64,000 nucleotides of DNA from Yuukianura sp. NJ FZ-2021 (lineage: Eukaryota): assembly GCA_046563655.1 (NCBI GenBank), contig CM102284.1:2480001-2544000 (forward strand). The letters run 5' to 3'. Position numbers and translations under genes: made by a program. Positions 7,702-45,255 of this stretch are shown here, piece by piece; the stretch's first letter is position 1; each line of letters opens with the position of its first letter. The notes under the pieces were generated by a model that was given only the letters and a program-made list of their open reading frames with translations, had not been told where the DNA came from and searched no databases.

Positions 7702-9619
7702 TTACACGTATTCAAACACAGAATGGTTTACGTTTCTAGTTTCTAGCCAATACCTAGTGCAAGTATGCGGCCAGAGAGCTGTTACGGTTCCTTTGGAGTT
7801 CATGTACCAGGCATCACAATTTCCTTTGACCCAGACAGTCGACTTCATGCTCTCTTCCGTTTGCTGAGTAAATTCGACTTCTGCGTCGGCTTTTAGTGTA
7901 ACGCGTCTGGAATTTCTGCGCATCATCTCCTGCACTACTTGAATCATAAAGTTCGCTTGGCACTCAATCATTATCAGCACCGAGTTATGCCCAAGAGCCT
8001 AGCAAATATTAATAGAAATTCAATTTTAGTTCACATTTTTAACAACATTTAAAAAAGTGAAGAAAATTAAAATCTTACAGTATTTGGTCCAAGAAGAATG
8101 AATTGATTTGGCATAATGGTTGTGGCAATTCCATAGTAAGTCGTAGGTCCCTCTTTCTTCCAAGTAGCCAAAACGTCGATTCCGTCTTTTCCAATAACTT
8201 TCATTGGTTCATAAAAATTTTGAACTTGAAATCCAGTAGCCAGAATCAAAAGGTCCAACTTCTGCTTTTTTCCGTCTTTTGTTCCAATTTCGTTTCCGGT
8301 AATTTTTGTGATTTCATCTCGAATGACCTTGACATGGGGCAGTGCTAGGGCTGGATAATAGTCTGAAGAAAGTATAATTCGCTTGCATCCTAAAGTGTAA
8401 TTCGGCGTCAGTTGATCAGCTTTGGGATCTCCTTTTGGAAAGTAGGTCCGGAGCCTGCGTACCATATTCCATGCTCCTAAAATTTATAGTCAGCTAGATT
8501 TAGTTCAACTAACATTTGGGTTACGCTATGTTATTTTCAACTTACCAATTCTATTAGTCCAGTGTTCGTAAGTGAAGATGGAATGGAATATTTCATTTAG
8601 GAAATAAATCCAAAACCGATACAGCCACATGATTGGCGGAAAAACGTTGAAGATCCATTTTGTAGTTTCGGAAAAGTTGCCTTGGCTTCGCGGTTTAATC
8701 CAAGCTGGCCGTCTTTGGTAACAATGAAGTTCCTTCACCTTTGGAGCAATTTCTTGGATAACTTGTACTGCCGAAGCTCCACTTCCAACAACTCCGACGA
8801 CTTTGTTCTTAAAGTCAATGCCATCTTGCCACTGAGCAGTGTGAACTTTTGGGCCGGTGAAGTCTTCAAACATGCGCGGTATCGAAGGAAGGCGCAGGGC
8901 TCCAGGACCGTTGACCACGACATCAAAAAGTAGTTCTTGTTCTTTGTTCGTTTTTGTGTTGAAAGTGGTCACTCGCCATTGGTTGATATCCTGCTCCCAC
9001 TCCATCTTGGACACTTTGGTGTGGAATTTGATATGCGGGTAAAGTTCGTACTTTTTGGTAGTGTTACGAATGTATTCCTGAATTTCTGCACCGCCGGAAA
9101 AGCGCTGTGACCAGTCTAGATGGAAATTCAATTATCTGTTAAATTCAGCGCTTTTTTTTGTACAGTTTTGAATAACAAAAATCTGAGCTTTTTTCTCACT
9201 TGGATTTGGTTCGAATGACCACGAATATAAATGGCTCTCCACCTAAAGAAAAAAAAAACGATAGTTGTTACACAACACTGAAAATGGCACGCGCAAAATT
9301 TCAAAATCTGGGAGTGTACTGTAGGTATATGAATTTTGAAATAATAGACTTACATCACAAGCAACTCCAGGGTACTTGTTCACTAACCAAGTTCCTCCGA
9401 CGTCTTCATTTTCGTCGAACATTTGAAACGAAGTAATTTTGAGTTCTTTTTTCAACTTAATAGCAGCGGTGAGTCCGGAAAATCTGAAAATTGAATTACA
9501 AACAAAATTTAAGAAATGTTCCTTTTTTGAAAACTGGAATTCGCATTTTAAAAAAGTTACCCAGCTCCCACAATACAAATATTTGGTGTCGTTCCATCTG
9601 GATAAGTATACTTCCCCAT
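7702..9619 (-). CDS. Flavin-dependent monooxygenase, type I Baeyer-Villiger monooxygenase-like (498 aa)
   Basis: Exons 9619-9561, 9483-9354, 9242-9200, 9115-8546, 8476-8079, 7998-7702 total 1497 nt. Motifs: FAD Rossmann IVGAGFSG, GGTWLVNKYPGVACD, BVMO fingerprint FTGPKVHTAQW (FxGxxxHxxxW), NADPH Rossmann VVGSGASA, and ATGF. Confidence 0.92.
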
Positions 9620-10498
9620 TTTAAAATTCCGAAATCAAAACGTTTTTTTGAATTTCCTCCTCTCTGAGCTTTTTTTTTCAACTCGACCGCTAAAATACAA
9701 CTTTGATCACTACTCGGTGGACCGGTAGCCACTAAACAGCACTGAGAGTGGACTGAAAGGATTTGGCAAAGCAAGCGTTGCTTATCCACACTAGCCTTCT
9801 GAAGTCAAATCCCATCAGTGTTAAATACTTGTTTTACGGTTTGCGTCACATGACTTTAGAATTGGGAAATAGCACAACGTGTCACACCAAATTGATCTAA
9901 TCATGTTTTATCAGAGGGGAATATTGTCAGAGTTCTTGACATTATTTTTGGTCGTGGTGGGGATTGTACCAAACTTCAATTCACACAAAAATGCGCCCTC
10001 AATCCAATTTCATGGACTTTGTAAATAATTTTCAACTTTGAACTTCAGCATGGCACTCGAATCATGCTGGAATTACTCGGGACTACAGAACATACATCAC
10101 GAGGTGTTTAAAACATTTAGTACATGGTAGTAAGTGAGCATTGCATCGCATTTTTAAACCCCAAATTATAAAAATGTGATGGCTGGTAAAGTTCAAAAAT
10201 TATACACGTTTTACCGAATAACTCAGGTCATCGTTTTTTGTGCATACATGATGTCGCCTGAAAGCGAAAAATATAACGGACGTAATTCTAGAATAGAATT
10301 AGATTAATAATTTAAGAATTAAAAAAGAAAATGTGAAACAGTGAAAGTCAATAATCGTATATCTCAGCCTCATTTTTTTATTCTACCGCGAGAATTTGAA
10401 TTTGACACACAACGTTGAATTAAGCTTATTTAGGATATCAATGATCAACCTAACAAAACCTAACAATAACATGTGTGCCAAACGTGTTCCTGTTCACG

Positions 10499-11811
10499 TT
10501 AGTCGATCAAGTGAACCTTTCCTACAGAGAAATGACGACGGCTGTGATTGTAAATCCGATTATGTCCATCAATGAGCGATTCCAAAATGTCCACGTACTT
10601 TAACAATCCTTCGTCATATGAGAATTCCTTTAGAAGTGCATCGCGCAGAAGCAGATAGTCTTGGACCTCACTGGCCAAAAGGTCACAGACTTCACGAACT
10701 GCTTGATCAATTGGAACTCCCTTTTGCAAAACTTTGAATACAACAAAGTTGTCTTTCTGTCCATACTTCAACTCTTTTTTGAGCCCAAGCAGGTCATTGA
10801 CGAAACCGCCAACGGAGTTGTTGATATCCAGAATACGACGTAGTGAGGGCGATTCAAAAATATGTTTCGGAAGACTCAAACCGTACATCATGAACACGAC
10901 TTCTGCAATACCGTCAAAGAAAGCAATAATCCGGCGCCAAAATTTGAAAGTTTCCTCTGAGTAGGTTCCATCAATGGGATGAACTGCGAACCACCTCATC
11001 GCTTCGACGTAGCGTTTCAAGAAGAAAATGAAGTTGCCGGAAGTTTGGCGGTACTTTTCCAAATGATGTTTTTCAAAACTTTCGTCCAAGTCAGCAACTG
11101 CTCTAAAAATCGGTTCAAAACCGGGACAACCCGGAACTTCTTTGTATTCTCGAGCCTCTGGTCCCTCCTCCCGAAAAACGCGGAGAATTTGAGCGTAGCA
11201 TTGCTCCATAGCTTTGAACGGGATTTCTTTGTCGATTGCTCCTTCCAAGACGTCGTCCATGTGCCACAACCAAAAGTACGTTCGCATGATGAGTTCCATG
11301 TCACGTGACTCAATTTCGTTGAAGGGATTGATATACAGTGTAAACAAAGCGGTGACTTCGATTAATTCGTTAAAATACGCGGGGTTAGATGCCCGGTCAA
11401 AGAATTTGTCAACCCAATGACTCAATTTTGCTACGGCTCCAGCTAGTTCTTCATCGGTGACGTTTTCGCGTTTATGCTTTGGACAAATCCGCGGAAATTC
11501 TCCACTCACATGGACCGTACCAAATGCCGGATGAGTGATTTCGCCCAAGTCAAATTTCACTTTCCCACGCAGTTGAGTACCATGACCAGTGGGTTGAGTT
11601 GGCGCTAAAAAAAAATTCGATTTTGAATTTAGAATTGTTTTTATGGAAAGAAGACAAAAATACTCGTTACACTTGTTTCTTTTTTTTTTTTGAAACTTTG
11701 TGGTTTGAAGTTTTGGAAGTTTGATTCTAAATTGTTTAAAAACGGTTATTTTTTGTTTTTACCTTGAAGCGTAGTGAAGTCAGCCTCGGTGTAGTACACG
11801 TCTCCAAGCAT
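10499..11811 (-). CDS. Microbial-type class I terpene synthase (about 384 aa)
   Basis: Long exon 11604-10499 plus a probable first exon 11811-11763 (MLGDVYYTEADFTTLQ, phase-compatible). Asp-rich motif MDDVLE, sensor-type Arg in FWRR, NSE/DTE motif NDLLGLKKE, followed by NFV and a C-terminal SRRH in place of RY. Confidence 0.88.
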
Positions 11812-12712
11812 TTTTCAAAGTGTATACACACGTGCCGTGAAGTCTTAATATCGCAAAATCCAGACGCTGTGTAACATAAGTTTTGCAGTGGTATATATAT
11901 CGTGTTTAAATTGGCCAAACATGATTACATAATTAGAAAAGTGTGTCGCTTATTTAATATGTAGTTGATAGTTTTATTGTAGGCGGTTAAAGGTGGTTTC
12001 CATTACATATCGTCTTGACCGTAATTAAATACTCAAAATTAGAAATTAGAAACCGTTAACAAATCCAGTTTCAGCCTACTTTGTAAAACATTTCCGTGTT
12101 GCGAGAAACATTCGACTAACAAGATTTCTATACCGCTAAGCCACCAATCTAATGAAGCAAATGGTGTTAGTTGAATGGCTTTTCCTAGTATGTCACAGCA
12201 GGTTTCAATTTCACTTCAATGTCAATTTCAATTCTCACTGAAATTTTTTTTTAATTAATAATGAAATGTAGTATCTAATGCTAAAATTATCTTCGCAATT
12301 CTGGGTTTTGTTTTTCGACAAATTTTGGCATCCGAGGTGCGTTTGCCATGCGCAGAATGAGAATATAAGCCGGAAAGCTTGAACAGAAATAAATTTCCTT
12401 TTTTTTTTCCTTTCTACCTACTACTTATATGGAAACGGGATCATATGGTTTTGGCTTTTACAAGAATTTTACGATTGTCGTCCACTTGAATTATTACAAA
12501 GAGCTTGTAGCATTGAAACGTTAAAGTTCTAAATTTGCCTTTTTTCAAGTGAAGTGTTTAAAAACCATTTCAGATTTCACACTAATCTGCAGATCTGCAT
12601 GACAACTTTAAGTTAAAATAAAGTGTTGATTATTTAGTGAAGCGAAACGAATTTGTAAGAAGTGTGCCAACTTTTGTATTCATTTGTCACAATTTTGATT
12701 AATCATAACATA

Positions 12713-15233: not shown

Positions 15234-15894
15234 ATTACTAACTTCAGAAACGTTTCTGCGACAACTGTTACAGCTCTCTCAAATTTGCCATTCCGATAAT
15301 AGCACACATGGCTCCTTGGCAAAATGAGTTATTGTTTACAAAGAAAAGACGCATTTTGACTTAAATGACTTATTTAGTTGTTATAAAGTTATTTAGTTGG
15401 CTTATTTAGTTAGTGAAGGACACGCTTAAAAAGAAAAGACAACAAAATTACAAAATATTACCATCTTATATATTATTTGTAATATTCTTTGTTTTTGTAC
15501 GGCATTTTGAATTGTTTAAGTTTTTTGTATTTAATTAACTAAAAACCGAAACGAAGGAAGGAGAAAATGGATGGTAAACACATTTGAATCCTAGGCTTAT
15601 TTGCACAACAATTTCGTTGGCCTTATTTGAACAACATTTACTCGATGACTTTCAATTGGCTCTTATTTTAAAATTTTAGATATCAATTCCCAATTTTTAA
15701 CAGATTTCAAAATGCCACAAGTAGCGAAAATGTAATGTCCATAATCGTAGTGAGGAACGTAACCATTGTTTGTCTTCCAAAAGTGTAAAACGGCCCAATG
15801 TTTACGGAAAGTGGTTTAGCTGATTTGAGGAACAAGTTGAGGTGTCTAAGATCTTCTTGTCCATTGAGTGTCGATTTCCATTTGAGATTGACCT

Positions 15895-30900: not shown

Positions 30901-33900
30901 TGCCCTTAATCACTTCCACTCCGTTGTCACATAAAGGACAATCAACTGGACTGTGTGTATCTGCTGCAGACTTCAAAGCGTAATCGCAACGAAACGATTT
31001 TACCGTTTGATTATTTTGTTTCGGTTATGTTCAGTTATTAAGACCTCGTGCAAAAATGTTTTAAACGGCTGAACCGTTCCGTATAAAATAATGTTACGGA
31101 ATGAGGCAAAAAGTTCTAGTTCATCAGCACTGTCGTCAAAAGGCACAAAGAATGTATGTGTCACAGTTTACCTTTTGTAAGTATTACTAAAATTAGTAAA
31201 ATTAGTAAAATTACTAAAATTAACCTAGTCTATTTTTGTTTGTTTTGTTTTTTCGTGAGATGATACCGTTCTTTGTGGGTAGAGTTTTCGGCATTCTTTG
31301 ATTTGCGGTTTTTGATTAGCCGATTGTATGGAGCTGTGTCGTTCCGTTCCGGTGTCCCGGATTTGGCCCGAAACCTGTACGCATATGAGTAGTAGAGTGC
31401 ATACCTCTTTGAATCGAAAGGTGGCGCTTTTTCTTGTGTTTTGTTTTCCCGAAACAGAATATCGAAATCGAATTCGTTTCGTTTCTGACTTAGGGTTTGG
31501 TACAATCCCTCCGCTCCATTTAAAATTAACCGTGCTAGAAAGAACAATTTGCGGTGCTTCATCTAAACCGTTCCGAGAAATGTTTCGTTTCGTTCCCGGC
31601 ATAGTGGAATCGGAACAATCTTTGTCGTTTTCTTAGGATTGTGACACTTTGACGAAGAAAAAGGGACAGGAAGGAACCTCATCGAAAGTGGTCGTAACTA
31701 CTACAGTAGGCAGACAGTGTTTGGTTCGTGGGAATGTTAGAGTTTGGATTATCTTGTCCCTGTCAATCCAGTTCCCTTTCTCCCTCCTTTCTCCTTCATC
31801 TTTCCCGCCTTCACCCGCATTTCCAAGAGCAAATAAACTGAAAGTCCACTCCTGTCTCCTGCAATGCTCTCGCACTCTGTTTAGATTGAAGAATCCTCTT
31901 AAACCAAAAAAAGAGATTCCAGATTCTAAACAGAAATCAAGTCTGATTTTGAGAACGGAAAAAAATCACATCTTGTTTTCCACTTGAAAAAAAAATCGAA
32001 AATTCGGACGTCGGACTTTGAGATTTTTTCAAACTGTATGAGATTTTTTTTTCAAAATTCTACTGGACTGCTCTCTAGAGAGACACATCTCGTAATTCAA
32101 GTTGAAACAAACGCTGGAAGGAAAAAAAGCAACATAGAGAAAGATACTAAAGGGGAACGACCATGTTGTAGCTCATCTTATCTTTGTAAAAACCGCGCGC
32201 ACTTATGCTTTTGCTGGAGAAAGCACTGAAAGGAGTGGATAATAAACTGGAGCCATGCAGAAACCTACATGATTTTTAGTGGGAACATTGAAACGATTCT
32301 CCTCTGCTTTTGCTACTACTCCTCTTTGTTTCTCAAAAACAATGAAACTCCATTGTGTTACCGCGTTTTGTGCTGAGAGTGCGGGAAACACTGTTCCTTT
32401 AGAGTGAACATCTCATCATGCCCCGCATCGATCCAGCATTCTCAAAAACAAGAGCCACCACCACTATGAACCACCAAACCATGTCAATAATTTCATAATG
32501 GTGGGAAAGAACCCTCCCGCGCTCTATTTTAAGGAAAAGATAAACTAAAGCGTTGCGGAGGAACACAAGAAGTGTTTCAGATTTTGATGTGCTGAAAAGA
32601 GCAGAGAAAGCGGATAAAACAACAAAAATACTAAAGAAAAGGCAGATGGACTTGACAGGCTACAAAACTTATTTTCTCTGCCAATTGCAAAGCCAACTCT
32701 TTTTTCTCCAATTCTTCACCTTACCATTGACTCTAATTTAAAAAACAATGATTTGACAATAAAAAATCACGACTTTGATAAAAAAAAATTGCATCAAACA
32801 TAATTTCAAAATCACCTGCTAAATGTATATTTATTGCAAAACTTTTACTCTCAAAAAGTGCACTTTGAAAACAGTACAAAAAACGAGTGGTTTTTTCGCA
32901 AACCCTTAGGCAAAATACATAGGTATTTCAAAAAGCTTATGAAAAGTTATGAAAAAATGAAATGTTTTCAAAATTTACAAGTTCCGAAAAATGAGTGAGA
33001 ACCGTGAAAAATTATTTCAAAAAAGGACAGGCAGAATTGTTGGCACTTTTGACTAAAATGTAATGTATTTGCTAATAAATTTTATTTCAGGAGTCGAATC
33101 AGCAGAAGTCGTTGGACCAACATTCCTTGACGAACCGCCATCCCGCGTTCAATTTTTAAGTGATGCCGGGTTAGACTTGAATTGCTCCGCCACTGGATCC
33201 CCGACACCCACCATCAGTTGGCAATGCGGCGGCGGGGCACCCTGCTCCACCATCTCCGGACTCCGCCTGATCCATGACACAACACTATCCCTTCTGCCCT
33301 TTAGTCCAGACACTTTCCGCCCCGACATTCACGAAAGAACGTATCGATGTGTAGCCGTCAACACTTTCGGAACACTCGTCAAAGACGTAGCTGTCAAAGC
33401 GTGTAAGTTGAATTTCTTTCTCAAATTTCCATAAGTTTTTGATCCTCTCATAGTATTCAAATTTTGATTTCCCTTAGCATGTTGTCCCTCGAGCTTTTCC
33501 AGAGGTACAACAAGTAGGCAAATAAAAATAAGTTTTCCTTTGAAAAAGCAAAAGTTATTTGCTTCCTGCGGCTTTTTTGTGCTTGACGTTTTTTCAAAAG
33601 GAAGCACAAGAAAAGCATCTTCTTTTTGGCCCAAAAAGTTAAAGTCTGATAAGAATAATTGCTTCAAGTCCCCGTTGTGTATAAACTTCAAGTCAGCAAA
33701 TACTGCAAGGCAAGAAGAAACAGAGAAGAGAGGCAAAGGGAAACTTCATCTTGTATTCTCTTGGATACAAATCCCATTTCCATTTATCTTCCGCTCTACC
33801 GGAATCCAAACTTCTGTCAAGAGAACCATCACCTTTTTAAAAAAAAATACACCTCAGCCTTCACTTTCTAGAAAAATACATTTTATTCTAGTTTTTTTAT

Positions 33901-36900
33901 TTTGAAAAAGCGTTTCAAACCATTTTCCTTTTTTTAAAAAAGAGTTCACTGCTTCCCTAGCGGTTAACTTCAATCTCCGCAATTCCACTTTGGAAACAAC
34001 TAACGAACTAGAACCTGGGCGGGCGTTTTAGTTTTATTTTTCCTTGGCGTGTCTCGTCTTGCCCCAAATGAAGTAATGCGAGCCTGGACGGTGAAAGAGA
34101 AAAACAGCGCGAAGAGAGGAGAAAGTTGAAGCTTTTGAATCCTCTTAAGTTCGTGGCTGTGGAGTCGCCAATTAAAGCTTTTTCCATTTTTTCAGAAAAA
34201 AAAAGAAAAAAAAACTTCAAAGCTTGTTACAAAAAAAAGTCGGACGTGATATAAGGAAACATTTGGAAAAAGCGTCAGTTTTAAAACGTAAAAGTTTTGG
34301 TTCAAAAAATAAAGTGGAGGAATTGGGGCGTGATTTAGGCATTAAAACTAAAAATTTTCCAAAAAATACTTTGGAAATAGCCGGTAGGTGTAAAAACTTT
34401 GGCAAAAACGCACAATTATTTTTTAAAATTATACAAAAATTGGGCTTTTTCAGATTTCTGAGTTACTAAACGAACAGTTCATAAACTAACTTTTCCTAAG
34501 TTGCGTTTTTGTAACCAAAATTTTTACATTATTCTATTCTCAAAATTTTATCAAGCCCTGGCGTTACCTTTTTTTTTTAAAAACTTTTAACTTTTCAGAC
34601 AAAAAAATTTCTTCTCAAACAGTTCGGAAATTTTACGAGAAACTGTAGGGTTGAATTTAAATCTGATTTAAAGAAATGTGGAGCAGGTCCTAGGAGAAAT
34701 TACAAAATAGTTGAAATTAACGCGGGAGGAAGTTGGGAAGTTGTGAGTTCGAAATTTTTTTTTTTTGAAAAAGAGCGGCAAGATATGAATTTTGAATGAG
34801 AGGGAAATGCCGTCTGTGACTTTGTGTAGGGTTTGGTGGTGTTGCGGTTTAATTATGGGAAGTTTATACGCGGTGAGGAGATGCAGCAGAGATTGTGTTC
34901 CTCTGTGCCAACCAAGTTCTTTATTAATCATGATGAGGAGGGAATCCAGGCAACAGTTTTACACGGACTTTCTCTTGTGGTTCACTTTTGAAACAAGGCA
35001 GAAATTATTGATTACAGTAGAAAACCAACAAGGACAAAGCAGAAAGGCCTGTACAAATTAGTAAAACTTTAAACCTTCACGCAAAAAATTTAATCTAAAT
35101 TTAAAACATGAACAAACTTTACAATAGGAATTTCTTTTGGTACTTTACGCCCAACGCCACCGCCAATTTCTACTACACTTTTTATTTGGTTCAAAGTCAA
35201 ATGTTGAAAAAAATTATGTAAACAAAAACTAGGTTTTTAGTGTGAACCATCAAAAAATGGAACAAAGCACCAAATTCGTCCATGCTTTTTACTGTTATTG
35301 ATCGTAATTGCTTTCAATATTGAGTCTCACGTAGTATTCCATCAAATTTGAAAATTTTGACAAACTTCATTTTCAAACGCCTTTACGAAAACATCACCTA
35401 AATTTTCCGTATACAAAAGAAACTGGTGAAACAGATATGTGTTCGGAAACTTCTGATTTGAAATATATATTTGCAGATAAGCTGCATTGTTGCATTATGC
35501 TATTACCTTTATAGTATGCCAGTTGAGTACGCTGAAATTTTCAAAAATTGATTTCTTTAAAAAACAAATAAATAAAATAACTAATTTTATGGTAGTGGTG
35601 CCCCCTCATAGCCTGGATCTTCATGTACCTGCCGTAGCTGCCCTCATTGACCTCCCGGCAGTTCTCTCGTGTCAATTTCCTATAGATTTTGGAGAGGTCA
35701 CTTCCTGGATCCGCGATGACCTCTACTTGATATTTCCCAACCAACCCAGTGACAAGTACTTGATTCTTCCAAATGGAAGTCTCCTCATTTGGCAAGTGTC
35801 CTCTCCAGACTTCCACTCCAAGTTCCAGTGTCGAGTTCGCGCCAAATTTGGAGAGCGTGAAGAGTACTTAAGTTCTGAGGGAAGAATCAAACATCCCAGT
35901 AAGCACTTCATTTACACTCTAGATCTACAAACCATGTCTGTAACTTTTAACTCTTTTATACTTTTCTACATCATCCTTATTTTCTAATATAATTCAACCA
36001 AAATTTAACTTTCCTAATTTAATTATATTTTATTTACTGAAATTTGTTCTCAAATTCTATTACCTGTATTTACATTATTCTATACATTTCTATGTTAGAA
36101 TTCAACTTTCTTATGAGTGCTATTAGCATTTATTTAACTTTTTTTTATTATTTAAAAGAGTTAAAAGGAGCTTCTATCAGAATTTCAACGGTAAAGCTAA
36201 CTCCAAAATTAAATATAAAATTTAATTTAATTTAAATAGGCCAAGAGCAGCAAGGGAGACCAATAATTTCTTCATATTTTCCTCCGCGCATGCGCGTTGA
36301 TGAGGGCAAACAGACTGCCCTTCCATGCCTGGCCCTTGGAAGTCCTAAACCTAGAGTTCAATGGTATCGCCGCAAGGTCAATGCCCCCGGGGGTCCGTTT
36401 TTACCGCTCTCAAGTTCGTTTGAAGAAACGCGATTCGATTCTGGCGCTAACGTCGAAACAGCGCCAAAAATTCAAATCCGACATGGCGTCCTTCTCATTC
36501 CTTTTACCAAGCGAATTCATGCTGGCACATACTCTTGTAACGCCACAAACATGCTGGGCAGTGTTGGACATCAAGTAAGAACTTTTTAATTTTTAATTTT
36601 TTTTTTTTGAATCTTGGAAAACAAATTTTACCTTTGACATTTAGCTCGAACTTGCCGTCAACGCACCACTAGAACTCTCCTTTTTCCCGCCCTTACTCAC
36701 GGTTGACCTGGGAAAGACGGCGGAATTCAGTTGTACCTGTTCAGGTAGGCCATGTTTTAAATTTCTGATTTCGAAAATATTTCAAATTTTGAAATGTGGA
36801 ATTTGGCGCTTCTCAGACCCTACAGCTGATGTGCAGTGGCTCAAAGATGGCGCTCAGCTCAAGTCCGGCGGTTTCTCAGGACGGTTACGTTTGAGCAAAC

Positions 36901-39900
36901 AGAAACTACAAATTAGCCGCGTTTCAAAGGAAGATCAGGGTAAGAAATAGTGTCACATTTAGAAATTCTAAAGAGAGCAGATAAAGAAGTTTGAACAAAA
37001 ACTGTTTAAAAGAAGTTGAACTTTTCAAATAAAAAAATTTGATATTTCAAAACTCTTGTTTTAAAAAGGGATTTACCAGTGCTTAGCCCAGAGTGGAGAC
37101 GGAGAAACCTTTCAACAGAAGTCATCTGAACTTCGTCTTGGTGGTAAGAGATAAGGAAAGACATTCCCCATTTCCTCCTTTTAATTCTAAAAGCAATTTG
37201 TGTCCTAATCCTCTTTCAGTCCAAGCCGTCCACACTCCCGCCCATTCTCTTCTCTACTTTGTTCAAACAGTCTTTTTAGAACAGAAAAAGACGGAAGAGG
37301 CAGAACAGAAAAGAAAGTGAAAGCAAAAGCACTTTTGTTTTTTGTTTGCAAAACTTTCACCTAATCAACCCAAAATCTGTGGCTGGAATTAGGGCCTCTT
37401 CTCTTCATCAACTTCCCTCTTCTATAAGCCCTATCAAAACATTCTTTTCGCCCCAACACAGTCCTCGTCCTCAATACTCAGCCCTCACCCTAAAGTCCTC
37501 CAAAAAAATTTTTGTACTTTATTTTGAAATTTGGAAATGGAGACTCACATTTTTTGTCATCAGCGTCAGCATATGAACTTCATATTTTAGAATTCTGATT
37601 TTTGTAATTTCCATTTCAAAACGCCTTTGTAAACGTTTTTAGAAATCCCTGCAACAGATTTTCTCAAACTTTCTGGAAACAATTCCCATAAAGTTCAAAA
37701 AGTTTCAGCAATTTGCTTAGCAAGCACAAAATTATTTTTAATTCTTGTTAGAAGTTTTTGAATTCAATGCGAAATTTTAGATTTCCAGCAGTTTAGTTTT
37801 CCGGGAGCTTTTTGTTCAATAGCTCACAATTTTGTGTTTGCCGCGTCGTGTTGTGTTTTTATTTATACGCGAAGTTTTTTTCAAGTTCTGTAGAATATCG
37901 CTGGAAATAGATTACACTAAATACTAGGTTAGTCCTCTACTCAACGGCTTGGTCCTCATCTTGACTGAAGTTAAAAAGTCACAACCTTGTTCATTTGATC
38001 CTAGCGAGATTCCTTTGATCAAGTTCACATTTCCGTTCATTCCTTCACTTCTTTGTCACGGATTTGTCTCTCTTCTCTTTCTCTCTAAGAGAAAGCAGCT
38101 CAATGTTGTTCTTTAAAAGAGAAAGTCCATTTCCGCCTTGTCTCGAGTCGAATCAACGTCTGTTTCTTTATTTTCAAACTAACTCTCTCTCCTTCCTAAC
38201 CCTCTTTCAAGTTGAAATATTATTGTTTCGGATTTAGTTTTTTGGGGCAAGGTGAAACGGGCAGTGGCAGGGTAGCAGGGTAGCGGATGTCGTTAGATTC
38301 GATCCTCCATTCGCTTTCCTTCCTTCTTCTCTTTAATGATCCTTTCCCGTTTCCTCTTTCCCACTGCCCTGTCCTCTCTCCCGGGAAAACTAAAAAGGAA
38401 AAAAGAAAGTCGGATTTATTTCTACAGAATTGGATGTGTTTCTGCCCAATTGAGCTCGTGGAGCCTTCGCCTCTTGCCAGCAAAAATACAAAGCTTTTTT
38501 TAGCTCCAAGGATACAACAGTTACAAGAAAAATCGCTTTCACCATTTTTATCGCTGTAGTGCTGAAGCGCTTCCCTCATTTCTTCTTTTCCTTTTTAGCT
38601 GAAAATGGGCGAAAAAAAGATTCTGGCTCACCACTTTTTTAATTAAAAAGGAGATGGATGAGGTGCCTAATTAATTAGGTGGGTTTCCGCGCCAACTTCG
38701 AAGTTGGCCCAACCTAATTTTGGGCTGAGGTTCAAATTAGGTTGTAAATGAAGGTGTTAGGTTTGTGTTATTTTTTAATTAACTGAAGACCAAAAAGCTA
38801 ACAAAAATTTGTTTCGTTTTTAACTTTTTTGAACAGATTCGAAACCAGTGCTGCTCTATACTTTCATTGACCAAACAGTCCTTCCTGGAACAATCCTTTC
38901 CGTGCGGTGCAAGGGAACAGGGTAAATTTTCAAGAAAAAAAAATAACTTAAGACAAAAAACCATTTTTTTGACAAATTTTTACCCTCTGGTGATTATTTT
39001 AAACTGTTTTTTTTTTTTCAAAAAATTTTTGTGATTGAAGCTGGCCTATTCCCACGGTGACTTGGACTTTGGACGGATTTGAGTTGCCTGCGAGTGAGAG
39101 GTTTACGATAGACCAGTTTGTCGTTGACGATGTCGTAAGTTCGTTCATAAATATTACGGGCGTGGTCACTTCCGACGCAGGCGAGTACACTTGTGCCTTC
39201 CGAAATGTCGTTGGTGAAACTGCTCATTCGAATCGAATCAACGTCTATGGTGACCTCATTGTTCGGTCCATGCCGGAAGCCATTGCTGTGTTCGGAAAGT
39301 CGTTTCGCATCAAGTGCCCAGTGGGAGGATGGCCACTGGACAGAGTCACTTGGACAAGAGGAAGTGCCCTCCTCCCACAAAGTGTCCATCAGAAGGTCAC
39401 GCCCGATGGAACACTTTTCCTTGAAAGTGTCACAAAAGCGGATGGCGGAAACTATAAAGTGAGTTTTGTATTTAAAAAAACCAGTGATGTTACGCTTGGA
39501 AAAGAAAGCGTTTTTTTTTTCAAAAAATATTCTCCGAAAAGAAATGACCTGAATTTTTGGAAGTTTTGGCTCGGAGCTGCGAAACGTATTGCAATTTTTT
39601 TTAAGATATGAAAAACCACTATTTTTCCTGTTTCGTGATTGGTTGATTTGCAGTGTATCGCTTCCAGGCAAGCACAGATGGCTGAAGGTAACGTAGTTGT
39701 TAGCGTCGTTGGTAAGTTTTTGGCGTCTCTTTTGGTTGAGCACTGAGCATGCGCAGAGCACTTCCACACTTTCCCGCCCTTAACTTAAATTTCAGTTCAG
39801 CCAGCCATAACTCCATTCCAATTTGGAAATGCCGTCGCTGGGGAACGAGTTAGCGTGCTTTGTAGTCTCACGACGACAGGCCTCCACAACATCAGTATCA

Positions 39901-42900
39901 CATGGGAAAAAGATGGCCGGAAACTCAGTTCAGAACGGCATATGCAGAACGACGTTTTTCGAATCACGCGCATTGATGAATTTACGTCATCATTGTCCAT
40001 GCAAGAGCTTCGTCCTGACCTGGATGGCAACTACACTTGCAGGGTCAGTTCTGCTGTCCATCCACACATTGAGGCTTCCTGGACCTCCAAGCTACGAGTC
40101 AACGGTGGGTTGCTGCAGAACGCAAATTTTAATTTGGCGCAAATCTGCGTGTGTTAAGAAAACAAAACAAAAAACGCGTTATATTTAAAGCTCACTTTGT
40201 TCCACAATTTCCCAAACAAATGCACTTGCTTCCATTCTGCACTAAAAATTAAAAGCGAGAATTGTGGCTTTGAACATTTCAAAATTTGTCGTTTCAGTTC
40301 CCCCGCGAATTACAAAATTCAACTTTGAGGAAATGATTGTTGAAGGAATGAAAGTGCAGGCATTGTGCTTTAGTCAAGGAGATTTACCACTAACATTCAA
40401 ATGGTTTCGTGATGAAACCCCTTTACTCATTTCTGATTCAAATAATGGATTTAACTTGGCGAGTTTTGGCGCCAATTCGCAAATCCTTACCATTGAAAGC
40501 GTAGGAGTTGACATGGGTGGGGTCATTTCCTGTCAAGTGTCAAACCGGGCTGGAACTGCCGTTCACTCTGCATTACTCATGATTAAAGGTATTTAATTGA
40601 AGTGCACAACCGTCACTGCACAAAAGCACGCATGTCACTCACCCGCCACAATTTGAATTTTACAAAATTTAAAATCATTCCACTATGTCACGCTGCCACG
40701 CCTATTTCTGACTTTGCAAGAATTTGTCCAGCGCTTGAAAAAAATCAGCGTCAGAATCGTTTTTTGCACAAAAATGTACCGTATGTTGTAAAAATCTAAT
40801 TTGAAGTTTAATTCTTAGTGCCTCCAAAATTTTCTATTGAGCCGCAAGACATTTCAGCAACCGTCGGCAGTTTTTTGCAACTCCGATGTGAGGCCCATGG
40901 TCAACCCACTCCGCGTGTGAAGTGGTTGCAAGAAATCAGAGCTTCTGCGCATGACAGCTATCGTGACATCGATTCTTTACCTGGCGTTCGCAGTGTCAAT
41001 AGCACTCTGACATTCAGTCACGTCACGAAGGACCACGCTGGACCTTTTGTCTGCCAGGCGTCAAATGATGTTGGGCCTCCTCTTAACAAAAGAATTCAAA
41101 TCAGCGTCAACGGTATTCTTTGGCAGGCTTTTTTCAATTCTAAAATACGAATTCAAATTTTTGTAAATTTTCAGCACCTCCTAAAATTCGCTTCAGATCT
41201 TCCAAGGAAGTTGCGGAAATTGGACATGAAGTATCTCTGCGTTGCGTCGTTGAAGGAGATGCTCCAATTCGAATTTCATGGAAATTGAATGGCGTCGATA
41301 TTGCGCATGTCCATAGGCAGAACGACTCCTTTTCTGATCTCAAAATTAAATCCATTCGTCTAGCAGACAAAGGCGACTACGTCTGTTTTGCTTCAAATCC
41401 ATTTGGCCATGACTTCCATGTGATTTCGCTCCTTGTACAAGGTGAAAGCAAAATTCAAAAATTCTTCAAATTTTTTTTATTCACTGTTGCCGTTTTTTAA
41501 AATTTCTAGAACTACCCCAAAGTCCAAGTAATCTCCGAGTTGTGCATCAAACTAGTCGGTCTGTTACTTTAGCATGGTCAATTGTAGCATACATTGATGC
41601 TTACGTTCTCGAGTTCATTGTTCGGCACAAACGGAATGATAGTGGTACAATTTTAAATATTTTTCTTGTTTCAAAATATTAGAACTAAATTGATAATTTT
41701 TTTTAGACAACTGGATTACCGAAGTTGCCAATGGGGATGAGAGTAGCCGAACTATCAAAAACCTTCTTCCATTTACAACATACGTGTTCACAATTGGCGC
41801 CAGAAATCAAATCGGTTCTTCACAACCTTCTCCACAGCTTATTGTAAATTCAAAAAAAGATTAAAAGAAAAGGAAATTAAATACCAATCATTTGCAATTT
41901 TCAAGATTTAAACAACATTGGTTTTTCAGGTTACTACGGATGAAGAAGAGCCGAGTGCCGTTCGTCATTTAACAGTCGAGGAAATACAGGGCGTTGGTCG
42001 TAGTTTGCGTGTAGCTTGGGTTCGTCCAGAATTTCCTAATGGCTTCATTACTCACTACAACATCATGTATCAAAGGAGTAGGTGAGCACTCGTTTTCAAC
42101 TTCGATTGGAAATATTTCAAAAAAATTTGTTGCTGTTTTTAAAAATCCTCCATTTACCATTTGGGTTTTCCCGCCTTTTTATGAAGTGACAGTTACGGTT
42201 TTCGTGGAGACGGAAAGTATCGAAATGTGCCTTCGACACGCTCAAGTATCGTTCTTCGTGTGGAACCATCAAACCAGTACAGTATTATGGCCAGAGCTGT
42301 TAACCGTGCTGGTTATGGTTCCAATTCAACTTTAATTCAAATCCAGACACGAGAGGGCGTGCCCAAGTTTTCACCTGATGAAGTGAGGTGTGAGGGCCTC
42401 AGTGCCAAAAGTCTACAAATCACTTGGAAAGTACCAAAATCACCGCATAATGGTCTCATCATTGGATTTCGTGTGAACCTGGATCTCATTCAGACTGAAA
42501 TTTCATCAAGTTTTGCAACCAGTAAGTTAGTTTGCGTTTCACTCAAATTAAAAATTTACCGTCGGCGTGTTGTATCCGGTAGTACAACAGAAGAAACCAC
42601 ATCGCAAAAAAAAACTTTGACCAAATCGAGAAAATTTGATCAAGAAAATTTGATCAAAGAGTTAGTTGCAAGAAGGGGATTCTGTCTATCCCGGAACAAA
42701 AAAATAATCTTCGAGTAAACAGTAAAAATAGAACTTTAACTTGAATTTGGACTTTTTTTTAAAAAAGTGATTTCTATGTTTTTTTCTTTCTTTTCGAAAA
42801 TTTTAGGTTCGGAACTAGAATCGGAGGTTACCGGTACTTCAACTGTGATACAAGGGCTACGTGAACTGAGTCAATACAGTGTACAAGTAGCAGCTTTTAC

Positions 42901-45255
42901 CGCAGAAGGAACAGGACCACCTTCACGATCACTTCTTTGTTACACAAAGGAAGCACTGCCAAATATACCTTCGGAGCTAAAAGTTATTGAACTTATGGGA
43001 TATGTAATAATAGCATGGGCTTACACGTCGAGACCAAATGAAACTCTGCGCAAGTTCCATATTTACGTTCGTACGAGAGATGAGGGACAAGTTTTGAAAA
43101 AATCAGTTCTGGCAAACGCCAGAAAATACGAATTGCGGCATTTGGGAAGAGATGCCGTGTATGAAGCTTGTGTAACTGCAGAGAATGTTATTGGAGAAGG
43201 GAACCCAAGCCGTCCAGTACTGTTCAAAATTTTGCCGGGTGACAGCAAAGGTATAAGTGTTGTCGATTGATAAAAATCTTGCAATTACTTGTTCAAAATG
43301 TCCGTATATTATATTTGTAGTGTCAATACCTCCAACTATTCTGAGTTTTGGACAAAAGCTGACTGTTTCATGGAAAACTGACGTTGTTCTCGAATGTCAG
43401 TATACAACAACAGAGTCCAAACCAACAGTCATGTGGAAACGAAATGGCGCCGTGATGGAAGAATTTAAACAAGATACACTGGAGCTGCGCAACGTCAACT
43501 TCAAAGATTCCGGAAACTATTCTTGCACTGTAACTAACGGAATTCAGGCCGACCAAATTATATACACGCTTACTGTTCAAGGTAGTACTTATAAACCGAA
43601 ATCGCAAAGCTTCAAAAAACAATATGCACATAAATATTATTTCTGAAAAGCTTAATTTTTCGACATTTTTTGTCTAGTTCCACCAGAAGCACCAAGTTTA
43701 CAATCCAGAAAAATTGCTTCAAACGGTTCAACTATTTTAAATTGGAATGCTCCCACTTCCGCTACTTCTCCGCGTATCCTTGGATACAACCTCAACTACC
43801 GCCCACTAGATGGCGAATGGGAAGAAATCAATCTAGACAAAAAGCAAACAAGTTACGAACTACGTTTGGCCCCATTTGAGTGTTTTTCAAAAACTTATGA
43901 ACTTTTCCTAACTGCCTACAACTCCATTGGAAGTAGCCTCCCAAGTGACACGCTCCGAGTGGAGGTAGAAGGTCACTTCAATTTCCCACCCCATGCAACG
44001 ATACTCTCCTACAACGAAACTTCTTTAACGCTTAACTTTTCTACACTGCCACTTTTTGAATGTGAAAATTCCTTGCTGACCATGGAGTTCAAGACTGTGG
44101 ATGAGAATCAGTGGGTGTTGGGTCATGTGACAAACTGGAGTGATGCTGTGACCTTGGTTGACCTCCAAACTCACAAGGACTACGAAATACGACTCAAAGT
44201 TCAGTCTGACCAAAGCTCAAAAGTTCAACAGTTCAAAGTTTCTTTGTCAAGACAGTCACTGCTTGACCACCAAACGCTAAGCGGCGGTTATCGTGAAGCG
44301 CTGGTTGTCGTTCCATTGACATTTGCCCTTGTCGCAATTTTGACAAGTATAGTTGGCACCGCGGTATTTTGTTGGCGGAGAAGTAAGCAAGATTACTTAA
44401 CTATTTTTAAATTTCTTCTTTCATCATGCCGGATTTCAGTTTTTGAACAATTTAAATCTTCACAGGAAAAGAGAAGAATGGAAGACAGAGTCTTTCGCTT
44501 AGCGGAAATTCGTTTTCTATGCACGAAAAAGCGGACCGGGAGTACACAATAATTCGAGAGAAGCAATTTAAAGACAGTGACTGTGCAACAGGTCAGTGCT
44601 TTACATTGTTCGAGTTATGCTTATTCGTTGGTATGATTCTCAAATGTGATTTGATTGCAGAAGCAGATGAGGACATTCGTCCCTACGCAACATTCCACAT
44701 GCGACCTAATCATGTCAATATGCAACCAATTCCAACTCATGCGCATGACTTGTATTGCGATCCTTCTGTGCAGGTACAATACCACTCAAAAAAATTTCTG
44801 CTTATGATCTCTACCGTTCATATGCTTATGTAAAGTACAAGTAAAAATTGTTTTTTTTAAATGCACAGGGTCTCCCTCCAGACGACTCGGATTATTCTAC
44901 GTACACCCGCTACGACCGAAATTCTCGCGACGACTATATGACCGAAAATGATTATGTAGGAAATTTCAATACTCATTCCAACTCATTTTTATGTGGAACG
45001 GATACGACTTCACGCATGGTCACAATGGTGGCAGACAAAAGGTCAAGCCTGCCTAGGTCACGGCACAGGCGCAGTCAAGGACATTCTGTACCGGGAAGCA
45101 CGGAGCAGCGGAGTGAGCGGTACCGGTCGAGCGGTAGCAGTTCTGGTTCCGGTACGGGTGCTAGTTCTGGTGCTCAAGGACGAAGTGTTAAAAGGAGGCG
45201 GAGAGATGAAGATCCTTACATGTGCCCACACGATCATGCTTTCATAAACGTTTGA
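27987..45255 (+). CDS. Dscam: Dscam-family cell adhesion receptor (9 Ig, 4 FN3, Ig, 2 FN3, TM, cytoplasmic tail; Ig7 exon duplicated)
   Basis: Ig1 GPTFLDEPP from 33091, successive Ig and FN3 exons, TM VVVPLTFALVAILTSIVGTAVFCW and tail motif EDIRPYATF; stop at 45255. The signal-peptide exon 27987-28053 (MFSKWRETSILACLLTIWRNAEG) is phase-compatible but tentative. Confidence 0.9.

What the first reader, a model, noticed from the sequence alone, without database searches (positions are those of the whole stretch)
7702..11811. Terpene synthase next to a BVMO: candidate animal biosynthetic mini-cluster built from microbial-type genes
Seen: a class I terpene synthase lies about 880 bp upstream of a co-oriented type I BVMO-like gene; both frames are intact and spliced. 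Known: cyclase plus oxygenase clustering is typical of microbes (pentalenolactone biosynthesis uses both a terpene cyclase and a BVMO) and is rare in animals. Inferred: a scaffold plus tailoring pair making an oxygenated terpenoid for defence or signalling. A BVMO usually needs a ketone, so another oxidase elsewhere would be needed, and the adjacency may be coincidental.
Basis: partly seen in the sequence, partly recalled or inferred. Interest (0 to 1): 0.75.

Follow-up and report, generated by a model that had tools for sequence, protein, structure and literature searches.

The report
Terpene synthase beside BVMO-like gene, arthropod
An arthropod-type genome carries an intact microbial-style terpene synthase gene directly next to an intact Baeyer-Villiger-type oxygenase gene, but nothing yet shows that the two work in one pathway.

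Summary
On the minus strand lie a 2-exon terpene synthase (TS) gene (11811-10499, 384 aa) and, 879 bp downstream, a 6-exon BVMO-like gene (9619-7702, 498 aa). All six introns are GT..AG and neither frame is broken.

The TS matches Pfam PF19086, has a DDVLE motif and an NDLLGLKKE motif, and its model (pLDDT 93) matches solved class I terpene cyclases. The oxygenase has both Rossmann motifs and BVMO fingerprint 1. It has fingerprint 2 except for the last residue (Q, not P/D). It is far closer to solved type I BVMOs than to FMOs.

Both genes sit among ordinary animal genes (an MDP-1-like phosphatase, a Dscam-like gene) and share their base composition, so contamination is unlikely. The oxygenase falls in a small clade with a Bradysia odoriphaga (sciarid gnat) protein, sister to a Mortierellomycete fungal protein.

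Microbial-type TS genes are already published for sciarid gnats, springtails and mites. I found no paper on a BVMO in these animals or on this pairing.

The "mini-cluster" reading is untested. No other oxidase or biosynthetic domain was found in 1-33 kb, no shared promoter words were found, the TS has its own poly(A) signal, and conserved linkage could not be examined. Probability that both act in one pathway: about 0.3.

The parts
11763..11811 (-). Terpene synthase exon 1 (ATG at 11811; 49 nt; donor GT at 11762)
   Evidence: joins in frame to exon 2. Inferred only from ATG, GT and frame. Relatives P0004 and P0007 have similarly short N-termini ahead of the conserved AP(T/S)Q stretch.
11605..11762 (-). 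Terpene synthase intron (158 nt, GT..AG, 23% GC)
10499..11604 (-). Terpene synthase exon 2 with stop codon (368 codons). Carries DDVLE, the Arg 46 residues before the NSE motif, NDLLGLKKE, and RH near the C-terminus.
   Evidence: PF19086 at 4.4e-19. Motifs and their conservation in 35 relatives. AlphaFold2 model pLDDT 93.2, pTM 0.92. Foldseek top hits are class I terpene cyclases, TM 0.63-0.82.
10377..10382 (-). AATAAA, likely poly(A) signal of the terpene synthase, 117 nt after its stop
   Evidence: pattern match only.
9620..10498 (-). 879-bp spacer between the TS stop and the BVMO start; presumed BVMO promoter
   Evidence: No Pfam match in its ORFs was sought beyond one search's listing. No excess of words shared with the TS upstream region.
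9561..9619 (-). BVMO-like exon 1 (ATG at 9619; start of the FAD Rossmann motif GAGFSG, which spans the exon 1/2 junction)
   Evidence: P0014 aligns here by tblastn.
9354..9483 (-). BVMO-like exon 2 (BVMO fingerprint 1, GGTWLVNKYPGVACD)
9200..9242 (-). BVMO-like exon 3 (43 nt)
   Evidence: Alignment continuous with relatives.
8546..9115 (-). BVMO-like exon 4 (fingerprint 2, FTGPKVHTAQWQ; NADPH Rossmann motif GSGASA)
   Evidence: PF00743 FMO-like at 2e-14. Solved BVMOs at 3e-21 to 5e-18. Motifs.
8079..8476 (-). BVMO-like exon 5 (conserved GCKR stretch)
   Evidence: That the Arg is the catalytic one is recalled, not tested.
7702..7998 (-). BVMO-like exon 6 with stop codon
12659..13536 (+). Context: neighbouring host gene, an MDP-1-type HAD phosphatase, divergent from the terpene synthase
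   Evidence: PF12689 Acid_PPase at 6.9e-17 and 5.4e-14 on two exon ORFs.
33057..44549 (+). Context: Dscam-like gene (Ig and Fn3 exons), showing an animal, arthropod-type genome
   Evidence: Ig, fn3 and PF25059 FN3_DSCAM-DSCAML_C hits. The exon at 39039-39608 matches the solved DSCAM isoform 1.30.30 (3dmk) at 5.7e-46.

Best explanation
The window comes from an arthropod-type nuclear genome. It holds two intact, separately transcribed enzyme genes of foreign (microbial or fungal-type) ancestry lying head to tail.

The first encodes a single-domain class I terpene synthase. With a Mg2+ cluster held by DDVLE and NDLLGLKKE, it should ionise a prenyl diphosphate (GPP, FPP or GGPP; chain length not determined) and release a terpene hydrocarbon or alcohol.

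The second encodes a class B flavoprotein of the type I BVMO kind. It should use FAD, NADPH and O2 to insert oxygen next to a carbonyl, giving an ester or lactone. Heteroatom oxidation is also possible.

Shown here: gene structures, family assignments, motifs, the TS fold, the host context and the relatives. Inferred: catalytic activity and separate transcription.

My reading is that the two genes are not a self-sufficient pathway. The BVMO cannot act on a primary terpene synthase product, and no evidence ties their functions together. The adjacency more likely reflects shared history (co-acquisition, or foreign-type genes accumulating locally) than a complete scaffold-plus-tailoring unit. The BVMO may equally act on non-terpenoid carbonyls such as fatty aldehydes or ketones, or on xenobiotics. 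I put the chance that both act in one pathway at about 0.3.
For: Identity of the TS:
- PF19086 at 4.4e-19.
- DDVLE is present; both Asp are invariant in 35 of 35 relatives.
- N and D of the NSE motif are invariant in 35 of 35; Gly sits at the S/T position, as in 22 of 35 relatives.
- The model has pLDDT 93.2 and matches class I cyclases at TM 0.63-0.82.

Identity of the BVMO:
- Two Rossmann motifs and fingerprint 1 are met; fingerprint 2 is met up to the W. Motif definitions were read in PMC4498894.
- Exon 4 scores 3e-21 to 5e-18 against solved BVMOs and 8.6e-12 or weaker against FMOs.
- The closest full-length relative, P0011 (62% identical), scores 1e-59 to 5e-46 against CHMO, PAMO, STMO, OTEMO and related solved chains, and 3.7e-20 or weaker against FMOs.

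Resident host genes:
- Six GT..AG introns of 69-158 nt with 19-32% GC.
- GC/GC3 is 0.448/0.468 (TS) and 0.430/0.433 (BVMO), against 0.435/0.401 for the Dscam exons.
- An MDP-1-like gene lies 0.85 kb away and a Dscam-like gene is on the same sequence.

Foreign-type ancestry:
- The BVMO forms a 6-row clade with Bradysia odoriphaga (support 99), sister to Podila verticillata (99), inside unnamed and bacterial rows (taxonomy).
- The TS family is sparse: 155 representatives at E<=1e-3 among 1.84 billion.
- The TS has no close relative in 185,579 bacterial and archaeal species genomes: 107 pattern matches, 0 confirmed.

Against coupling:
- No further biosynthetic domain among the 75 and 117 ORFs scanned.
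- The TS has its own AATAAA.
- Shared 9- to 12-mers in the two upstream regions are within control range.
- 0 of 80 bacterial BVMO loci carry a TS within 10 kb.
- 0 of 7 contig lengths for TS relatives equal any contig length for BVMO relatives.
Against: - Two rare, foreign-type specialised-metabolism genes lying 879 bp apart in the same orientation is unlikely by chance if only BVMOs are counted as 'interesting neighbours'.
- Cyclase plus BVMO is a real pairing in microbial terpenoid pathways. The best NCBIfam model for the BVMO relatives is the pentalenolactone enzyme PtlE (3.3e-49), but the score is far below its cut-off of 1100 bits, and the other flavin-monooxygenase models that matched were non-BVMO families.
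- Sciaridae carry canonical TS genes (PMC11665903), and Bradysia odoriphaga also carries a member of this BVMO clade, so the two families co-occur in at least that lineage.
- My negative tests are weak. The environmental contigs are short. The bacterial loci are only 29-41% identical to the BVMO. The TS profile may miss distant cyclases. Promoter word sharing is a crude measure.
- The last residue of fingerprint 2 is Q, unique among the 30 rows examined, so BVMO activity itself is not assured.
Confidence: 0.5

Rival explanations
1. True mini-cluster. The TS makes the scaffold, oxidases encoded elsewhere (for example a P450 plus a dehydrogenase) install a ketone or aldehyde, and the neighbouring BVMO converts it to a terpenoid lactone or ester used as a pheromone or defence compound. 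The pair is kept together by selection or was acquired together from a microbial cluster.
For: - Adjacency at 879 bp, same strand, both intact.
- Both are of foreign type and equally ameliorated in composition.
- The BVMO clade is shared with a sciarid gnat, a family known to carry canonical TS genes (PMC11665903, sections read).
- The nearest named outgroup of the BVMO is fungal, and the nearest ESM Atlas clusters to the TS are mostly Ascomycota. That is compatible with a fungal cluster as the source.
- Cyclase plus BVMO occurs in the pentalenolactone pathway (family names; pathway recalled).
Against: - No intermediate oxidase in 1-33 kb.
- Separate transcription units are likely.
- No excess of shared upstream words.
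- No TS next to any of the 80 closest bacterial BVMO relatives.
- No sign of linkage among environmental relatives, though that test is weak.
- A reader who flags any oxygenase next to any of roughly 1-26 TS genes per genome would often find one by chance. This is my inference, using gene counts from PMC11665903 and PMC13638087.
Confidence: 0.3
2. One or both genes are intact but catalytically silent or repurposed. Examples: a TS that makes no product, or a flavoprotein that has lost Baeyer-Villiger chemistry and acts as a heteroatom oxygenase or NADPH oxidase.
For: - The TS has Gly in place of Ser/Thr in the NSE triad and RH in place of RY.
- BVMO fingerprint 2 ends in Q instead of P/D, unique among 30 rows.
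- Published arthropod TS enzymes with all motifs can still be inactive in vitro: BcTPS4 (PMC11665903) and ScTC4 (PMC13638087).
Against: - Long open frames with clean splice sites.
- Gly at the NSE position is shared by 22 of 35 relatives and H by 6 of 35, so these are family traits rather than lesions.
- All other hallmark residues are kept.
Confidence: 0.1
3. Contamination or mis-assembly: the two genes belong to a fungus or other microbe rather than to the animal genome.
For: Both families are typical of microbes, and the nearest named non-animal relative of the BVMO is a fungus.
Against: - The genes lie between animal genes on one continuous sequence without N.
- Composition and codon use match the Dscam exons.
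- No flanking repeats or breaks were found.
- The BVMO's nearest named relative is an insect protein.
- No close TS relative exists in bacterial or archaeal genomes.
Confidence: 0.03

Closest known systems
Canonical (microbial-type) terpene synthase genes of arthropods: Sciaridae, Collembola, Acariformes (PMC11665903, Results and passages read; PMC13638087, section 2.1 and passages read; PMC6275457, passages read)
   Same: Alpha-domain-only class I TS in an arthropod nuclear genome, carrying introns, flanked by host genes, and of foreign-looking ancestry. Published members are active on GPP, FPP, GGPP or GFPP.
   Different: - I could not place the window's TS in any published clade, because no named arthropod TS sequence was available to the tools.
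- Its nearest relatives (38-54% identical) are unnamed.
- None of these papers mentions a BVMO or monooxygenase neighbour (0 occurrences).
Type I Baeyer-Villiger monooxygenases (PAMO, CHMO, STMO, OTEMO) and the few metazoan BVMOs reported in Hydra, Oikopleura and Adineta (PMC4498894, passages read)
   Same: Two Rossmann motifs flank the two BVMO fingerprints. The Trp (not Tyr) in fingerprint 2 separates it from FMOs. Sequence similarity to solved BVMOs is strong.
   Different: - About 498 aa, lacking a segment of about 35 residues that is present in the CHMO-annotated relatives.
- Fingerprint 2 ends W-Q rather than W-P/D.
- The host is an arthropod, a group not mentioned in PMC4498894 ('arthropod': 0 occurrences).
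Pentalenolactone pair PtlA (pentalenene synthase) and PtlE (BVMO) of Streptomyces
   Same: A class I sesquiterpene cyclase and a type I BVMO encoded together. These are the NCBIfam models that the window's proteins or their relatives hit.
   Different: - Scores are far below the equivalog cut-offs: 66-168 bits against 1100 for PtlE, and 23 bits against 675 for PtlA.
- The bacterial cluster also encodes the oxidases that create the ketone (recalled). None is near here.
Octocoral terpene biosynthetic gene clusters (Scesa et al. 2022; only the title was seen, in the reference list of PMC11665903; content recalled; paper not held)
   Same: An animal genome with a terpene cyclase next to tailoring-enzyme genes.
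   Different: - A different phylum.
- The partners reported there (as I recall) are P450s and other enzymes, not a BVMO.
- Linkage there is conserved across species; that was not testable here.
Biological Baeyer-Villiger oxidation of aldehydes to formates in astigmatid mites (Shimizu et al. 2017, as described in bioRxiv 10.1101/2020.12.10.420141, passages read)
   Same: An arthropod BV-type reaction whose enzyme is described there as uncharacterised. A type I BVMO-like gene in an arthropod is a candidate kind of enzyme for it.
   Different: The substrates are fatty aldehydes, not terpenoids. The window's organism is not known to be a mite. No link was tested.

Membership tests
Class I microbial-type terpene synthase (Pfam PF19086) | Pfam domain above the gathering score | tested here: met
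   69.5 bits against 23.7, E=4.4e-19. 35 of 35 aligned relatives also match.
Class I microbial-type terpene synthase (Pfam PF19086) | Asp-rich motif DDxx(D/E) | tested here: met
   DDVLE at residues 133-137. Both Asp are invariant in 35 of 35 relatives; the third position is E in 14 and D in 20.
Class I microbial-type terpene synthase (Pfam PF19086) | NSE/DTE triad (N/D)Dxx(S/T)xxxE | tested here: inconclusive
   NDLLGLKKE has the N and the E, but Gly at the S/T position, so the strict pattern is not matched. 22 of 35 relatives have G and 13 have S.
Class I microbial-type terpene synthase (Pfam PF19086) | Pyrophosphate-sensor Arg and C-terminal RY pair (features listed in PMC13638087) | tested here: inconclusive
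   An Arg lies 46 residues before the N of the triad and is R in 31 of 35 relatives. The spacing rule is recalled. The C-terminal pair is RH here; R occurs in 33 of 35, Y in 27 and H in 6.
Class I microbial-type terpene synthase (Pfam PF19086) | All-helical class I cyclase fold | tested here: met
   AF2 pLDDT 93.2, pTM 0.92. Foldseek probability 1.00 to Streptomyces diterpene synthase 9m25, NcECS, BcBOT2 and pentalenene synthase, TM 0.63-0.82.
Class I microbial-type terpene synthase (Pfam PF19086) | Mg2+-dependent conversion of a prenyl diphosphate | not testable with these tools
   Needs a recombinant enzyme assay.
Published arthropod canonical TPS clades (Sciaridae/Acariformes; Collembola) | Phylogenetic placement inside one of the published clades | not testable with these tools
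The supplements searched hold no matching sequence.
Type I Baeyer-Villiger monooxygenase | [quoted passage not shown] | tested here: met
   GAGFSG at residue 18 and GSGASA at residue 188. Definition from PMC4498894.
Type I Baeyer-Villiger monooxygenase | Fingerprint [A/G]GxWxxxx[F/Y]P[G/M]xxxD | tested here: met
   GGTWLVNKYPGVACD at residue 49. Present in 28 of the 30 rows examined.
Type I Baeyer-Villiger monooxygenase | Fingerprint FxGxxxHxxxW[P/D] | tested here: inconclusive
   FTGPKVHTAQWQ matches 11 of 12 positions, including the W that separates BVMOs from FMOs (Y[K/R]) and the Thr refinement. The last residue is Q. Among the 30 rows it is D in 15, P in 9, N in 2, R in 2, Q in 1, and the motif is absent in 1. 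For this reason I call the gene BVMO-like.
Type I Baeyer-Villiger monooxygenase | Closer to characterised BVMOs than to FMOs or NMOs | tested here: met
   Exon 4: BVMOs at 3e-21 to 5e-18, FMOs at 8.6e-12 or weaker. Relative P0011: BVMOs at 1e-59 to 5e-46, FMOs at 3.7e-20 or weaker.
Type I Baeyer-Villiger monooxygenase | NADPH- and O2-dependent Baeyer-Villiger oxidation of a ketone or aldehyde | not testable with these tools
   Needs an enzyme assay.
Functional biosynthetic gene cluster | Physical adjacency of pathway genes | tested here: met
   879 bp apart on the same strand.
Functional biosynthetic gene cluster | Enzymes present locally can complete a chemically coherent route | tested here: not met
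   A BVMO needs a carbonyl. No P450, dehydrogenase or other biosynthetic Pfam domain was found among the 75 and 117 ORFs scanned in the window.
Functional biosynthetic gene cluster | Linkage conserved in related genomes | not testable with these tools
   No eukaryotic genome collection was available and metagenome contigs were closed. Indirect check: 0 of 7 contig lengths for TS relatives equal any contig length for BVMO relatives, which is uninformative for contigs this short.
Functional biosynthetic gene cluster | Co-expression | not testable with these tools
   No expression data. Only a null result for shared upstream words.
Pentalenolactone PtlA/PtlE equivalogs (NCBIfam NF045811, NF045818) | Score above the curated equivalog cut-off | tested here: not met
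   PtlE model: 66.3 bits (window exon 4) and 160-167.5 bits (relatives) against 1100. PtlA model: 23.4 bits against 675.

The most novel reading that the evidence does not exclude
A cyclase-plus-BVMO module was taken up as a unit from a fungal biosynthetic cluster and has been kept together in soil arthropods, possibly passing between lineages as the TS and P450 genes of fungus gnats are proposed to have done. With oxidases recruited from the host, it makes a terpenoid lactone or ester semiochemical. If so, it would be the first arthropod terpene gene cluster and the first arthropod type I BVMO with an assigned role.
Probability: 0.12. Interest if true: 0.8.

Novelty: new member of a known kind. 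Interest (0 to 1): 0.45.

Why it matters
Animals that build terpenes with microbial-type cyclases are a recent discovery: mites in 2018, fungus gnats and springtails in 2024-2026, and octocorals. What tailors those scaffolds in arthropods is unknown.

A type I BVMO-like gene in an arthropod, shared with a sciarid gnat and sister to a fungal protein, adds another foreign-type enzyme family to these genomes. My six literature searches found no paper on it.

If the adjacency proves functional, it would give a directly testable two-gene entry point into an arthropod oxygenated-terpenoid pathway. It would also be a case of cluster-level gene acquisition by an animal.

If it is coincidental, the locus is still a clean, well-anchored example of two acquired enzyme genes fully domesticated among host genes. 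The BVMO also remains a candidate kind of enzyme for the uncharacterised Baeyer-Villiger step known from mite formate biosynthesis.

Tried and rejected
- **Naming the relatives.** The unnamed hits therefore stayed unnamed, and the TS could not be placed in the published arthropod clades.
- **Supplements.** Those of PMC11665903 hold no gene identifiers for the B. odoriphaga TS genes. Those of PMC13638087 hold none of four short family motifs.
- **Conserved linkage by contig-length matching.** 0 matches among the 7 TS hits. Most of those contigs are 1.5-1.8 kb, so the test is too weak to count.
- **Bacterial origin as a cluster.**
  - TS family motifs: 107 pattern matches, 0 confirmed relatives. 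An earlier attempt with the broader alignment A2 failed for lack of conserved columns.
  - BVMO: 551 relatives, with the best 80 loci (1.42 Mb) containing 0 TS by profile search.
  - The profile might miss distant cyclases, and fungal genomes could not be searched.
- **Shared regulatory words** in the two 600-nt upstream regions: within control range for k=9-12.
- **Flanking repeats or transposon ends** around the pair: only two short low-identity matches.
- **Other copies.** There is no second copy or fragment of either gene in the window.
- **Rfam and tRNA scans** of the window: nothing.
- **Organism identity** could not be taken beyond 'arthropod-type'. No protein 90% or more identical to the window's own was in the protein collection.
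- **Not run.** Complex prediction was not used because no binding claim is made. The spliced BVMO was not folded because only unspliced window sequence can be submitted.

Full report
**Observation.** The finding's limits are exact, but both genes are on the minus strand. A 419-codon open frame at 10499-11758 and four further open stretches at 9243-9620, 8526-9131, 8067-8483 and 7702-7998 stand out in 37% GC DNA. The long frame matches Pfam PF19086 (terpene synthase family 2, C-terminal metal-binding) at E=4.4e-19, 69.5 bits against a cut-off of 23.7. The 8526-9131 stretch matches FMO-like PF00743 at 2e-14.

**Gene models.**
- The TS frame has no ATG upstream of a polypyrimidine-AG at 11605. 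A 49-nt exon starting with ATG at 11811 and ending before GT at 11762 joins in frame, giving 384 aa.
- This first exon is inferred. Its only outside support is that two relatives starting with Met (P0004, P0007) have equally short N-termini before the conserved stretch at the junction.
- The oxygenase has six exons: 9619-9561, 9483-9354, 9242-9200, 9115-8546, 8476-8079 and 7998-7702. All introns are GT..AG, 69-111 nt long and 19-32% GC, and the protein is 498 aa.
- The spliced protein aligns from first to last residue with relatives of 495-499 aa, without gaps at the junctions. A Bradysia odoriphaga protein aligns by tblastn to exon 1, exons 2-5 and exon 6.
- The gap from TS stop to BVMO start is 879 bp.
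- Each gene is single-copy in the window.

**The terpene synthase.**
- It carries DDVLE and NDLLGLKKE. In an alignment of 35 relatives, the two Asp and the N-D of the second motif are invariant (35 of 35). Gly replaces the usual Ser/Thr in 22 of 35, so this is a family trait.
- An Arg lies 46 residues before the second motif and is R in 31 of 35 (the spacing rule is recalled). The C-terminal pair is RH, where 27 of 35 have RY.
- An AlphaFold2 model built on that alignment has pLDDT 93.2 and pTM 0.92. It matches solved class I cyclases at 16-21% identity: the Streptomyces diterpene synthase 9m25, 1-epi-cubenol synthase, BcBOT2 and pentalenene synthase, with TM 0.63-0.82.
- By sequence, the best solved hits reach only 3.8e-7.
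- The nearest ESM Atlas clusters are terpene synthases, mostly from Ascomycota (a lead only).

**The oxygenase.**
[quoted passage not shown] FMOs instead have FxGxxxHxxxY[K/R].
- The window protein has GAGFSG, GGTWLVNKYPGVACD, FTGPKVHTAQWQ and GSGASA. Everything is met except the last fingerprint residue, which is Q. Among the 30 rows examined that residue is D in 15, P in 9, N in 2, R in 2, Q in 1, and the motif is absent in 1.
- Exon 4 scores 3e-21 to 5e-18 against solved phenylacetone, cyclohexanone and steroid monooxygenases and OTEMO, and 8.6e-12 or weaker against FMOs.
- The closest full-length relative, P0011 (62% identical over 492 columns), scores 1e-59 to 5e-46 against the same BVMOs and 3.7e-20 or weaker against FMOs.
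- The family lacks a segment of about 35 residues that is present in two CHMO-annotated relatives.

**Host context.**
- The window is animal DNA. A Dscam-like gene with Ig, Fn3 and PF25059 domains spans about 33-45 kb. One of its exons matches the solved DSCAM isoform 1.30.30 (3dmk) at 5.7e-46, against 3.9e-12 for another DSCAM entry. That 3dmk is the Drosophila protein is recalled.
- An MDP-1-type phosphatase gene starts 0.85 kb from the TS start, on the other strand.
- A neighbouring multi-pass membrane gene resembles arthropod hypothetical proteins (a lead only).
- GC/GC3 of the TS (0.448/0.468) and the BVMO (0.430/0.433) match the Dscam exons (0.435/0.401). Codon frequencies correlate with Dscam at r=0.70 and 0.73.
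- No transposon-like repeats flank the pair.
- Contamination is therefore very unlikely.

**Relatives.**
- The TS family is sparse. The word-indexed search gave 7 proteins at 38-54% identity, all unnamed.
- An exhaustive HMMER pass over 1.84 billion representatives gave 155 at E<=1e-3, 44 at <=1e-10 and 12 at <=1e-30.
- Two family-specific peptide patterns hit 107 places in the genomes of 185,579 bacterial and archaeal species, and none encoded a relative.
- For the BVMO, 3 short and 30 longer relatives were found. The best named ones are a Bradysia odoriphaga hypothetical protein (51% over exon 4) and a Podila verticillata protein (43%).
- In a quick maximum-likelihood tree of 30 rows, the window protein pairs with P0011 (support 98). 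It then joins a six-row clade containing the Bradysia protein (99), then Podila as sister (99), then unnamed and bacterial rows (taxonomy).
- The rows were those that a word-based search returned, so sampling is biased and no donor can be named.
- No protein 90% or more identical to either window protein was returned, so the source genome appears not to be annotated in that collection.

**Is it a cluster?**
- What can be said for it: the two genes are adjacent and co-oriented. Both are of foreign type. The BVMO clade is present in B. odoriphaga, and the family Sciaridae is reported to carry canonical TS genes (PMC11665903).
- What I could test came out null or negative.
  - No P450, dehydrogenase, prenyltransferase or other biosynthetic Pfam domain was found. 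I scanned 75 of the 162 ORFs of 75 aa or more, hand-picked, mostly those of 95 aa or more outside the finding. I also scanned 117 ORFs of 55-94 aa in 1-7.7 kb and 11.8-33.1 kb.
  - An AATAAA lies 117 nt after the TS stop, so separate transcripts are likely.
  - The two 600-nt upstream regions share no more 9- to 12-mers than random segment pairs; the fraction of controls at or above the observed count was 0.12-1.0.
  - Among the 80 best bacterial loci related to the BVMO (29-41% identity, 1.42 Mb), a TS profile found nothing.
  - None of the 7 contig lengths for TS relatives equals a contig length for a BVMO relative. Most of these records are transcript-sized, so this says little.
- Chemically, a BVMO needs a ketone or aldehyde, which a terpene synthase does not deliver.
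- On chance, which is my inference: published genomes hold 1-26 (sciarids) or about 13 (springtails) TS genes. A scan that would flag any oxygenase neighbour has a fair chance of finding one. For a BVMO specifically the chance is small.
- I weigh this at about 0.3 for a shared pathway.

**Mechanism.**
- Most likely these are two active, separately transcribed enzymes. One is a Mg2+-dependent class I cyclase acting on a prenyl diphosphate. The other is an FAD/NADPH oxygenase forming esters or lactones from a carbonyl substrate, which may or may not be terpenoid.
- Non-terpenoid alternatives include fatty aldehydes. A Baeyer-Villiger route to formates is described for astigmatid mites, with the enzyme unknown (bioRxiv 10.1101/2020.12.10.420141, passages read).
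- Activity is inferred throughout.

**Comparison and novelty.**
- Microbial-type TS genes in arthropods are published: trombidid mites (PMC6275457); Sciaridae, Collembola and Acariformes with enzyme assays (PMC11665903); and 277 genes in 21 of 26 springtail genomes (PMC13638087). The TS is a new member of that kind, though clade membership was not testable.
- BVMOs in Metazoa were reported only for Hydra, Oikopleura and Adineta in PMC4498894.
- Six searches of the held library found no paper on a BVMO in sciarids, springtails or mites, or on an animal TS-BVMO pair. Subscription journals are largely not covered.
- NCBIfam's best models are the pentalenolactone enzymes PtlE and, more weakly, PtlA, but at scores far below their cut-offs. 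The resemblance is at family level only.

**Limits.**
- No eukaryotic genome collection was available.
- bioRxiv supplements were closed, and the octocoral cluster paper was not held.
- As a result, conserved linkage, donor identity and the exact source organism stay open.

Noticed in passing
window 33057-44549 (+): A large Dscam-like gene with many Ig and Fn3 exons and the DSCAM C-terminal Fn3-like domain. I did not check whether it has arrays of alternative exons.
   Followed up: partly
window 13907-15278 (-) and 17168-18334 (-): Tandem paralogues of a three-exon multi-pass membrane gene with no Pfam match. ESM Atlas neighbours are arthropod hypothetical proteins, with a weak lead (0.87) to gustatory-receptor family 7tm_7. 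Between the two copies lies a 257-codon ORF (16352-17125) with no family match, in a stretch of higher GC and GC skew.
   Followed up: partly
window 53555-54959 (-) and 58376-59835 (-); 56711-57238 (+) and 61052-62220 (+): A segmental duplication of about 4.8 kb carrying two further families of multi-pass membrane protein genes. The paralogue pairs are clearly similar, and none has a Pfam match.
   Followed up: no
window 18715-19114: A tandem repeat of an 11-nt unit (36 copies, 94% matches) with a 55-nt higher-order period.
   Followed up: no
window 10499-11604 (-), residues 13-38 and 363-366 of exon 2: The TS model has an N-terminal beta-hairpin that pairs with a C-terminal strand, in addition to the helical cyclase core. 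Query TM-scores are lower than target TM-scores, which fits an extra element absent from the solved cyclases. The stretch is conserved in the close relatives that include it.
   Followed up: partly
window 12659-13536 (+): An MDP-1-type HAD phosphatase gene lies divergent from the TS, about 0.85 kb from its start. It is probably an ordinary host gene. No link to prenyl diphosphate metabolism was tested.
   Followed up: no
window 5754-6504 (+) and 3920-3985: A Thr/Pro-rich mucin-like ORF lies convergent with the BVMO gene, and a 33-nt two-copy repeat encodes a Thr-rich stretch. Neither has a family match.
   Followed up: no
P0014 (Bradysia odoriphaga HA402_008581): A sciarid gnat genome encodes a member of the same BVMO-like clade, annotated only as a hypothetical protein. 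It may be another foreign-type gene family in fungus gnats, beside the published TS and P450 cases.
   Followed up: partly
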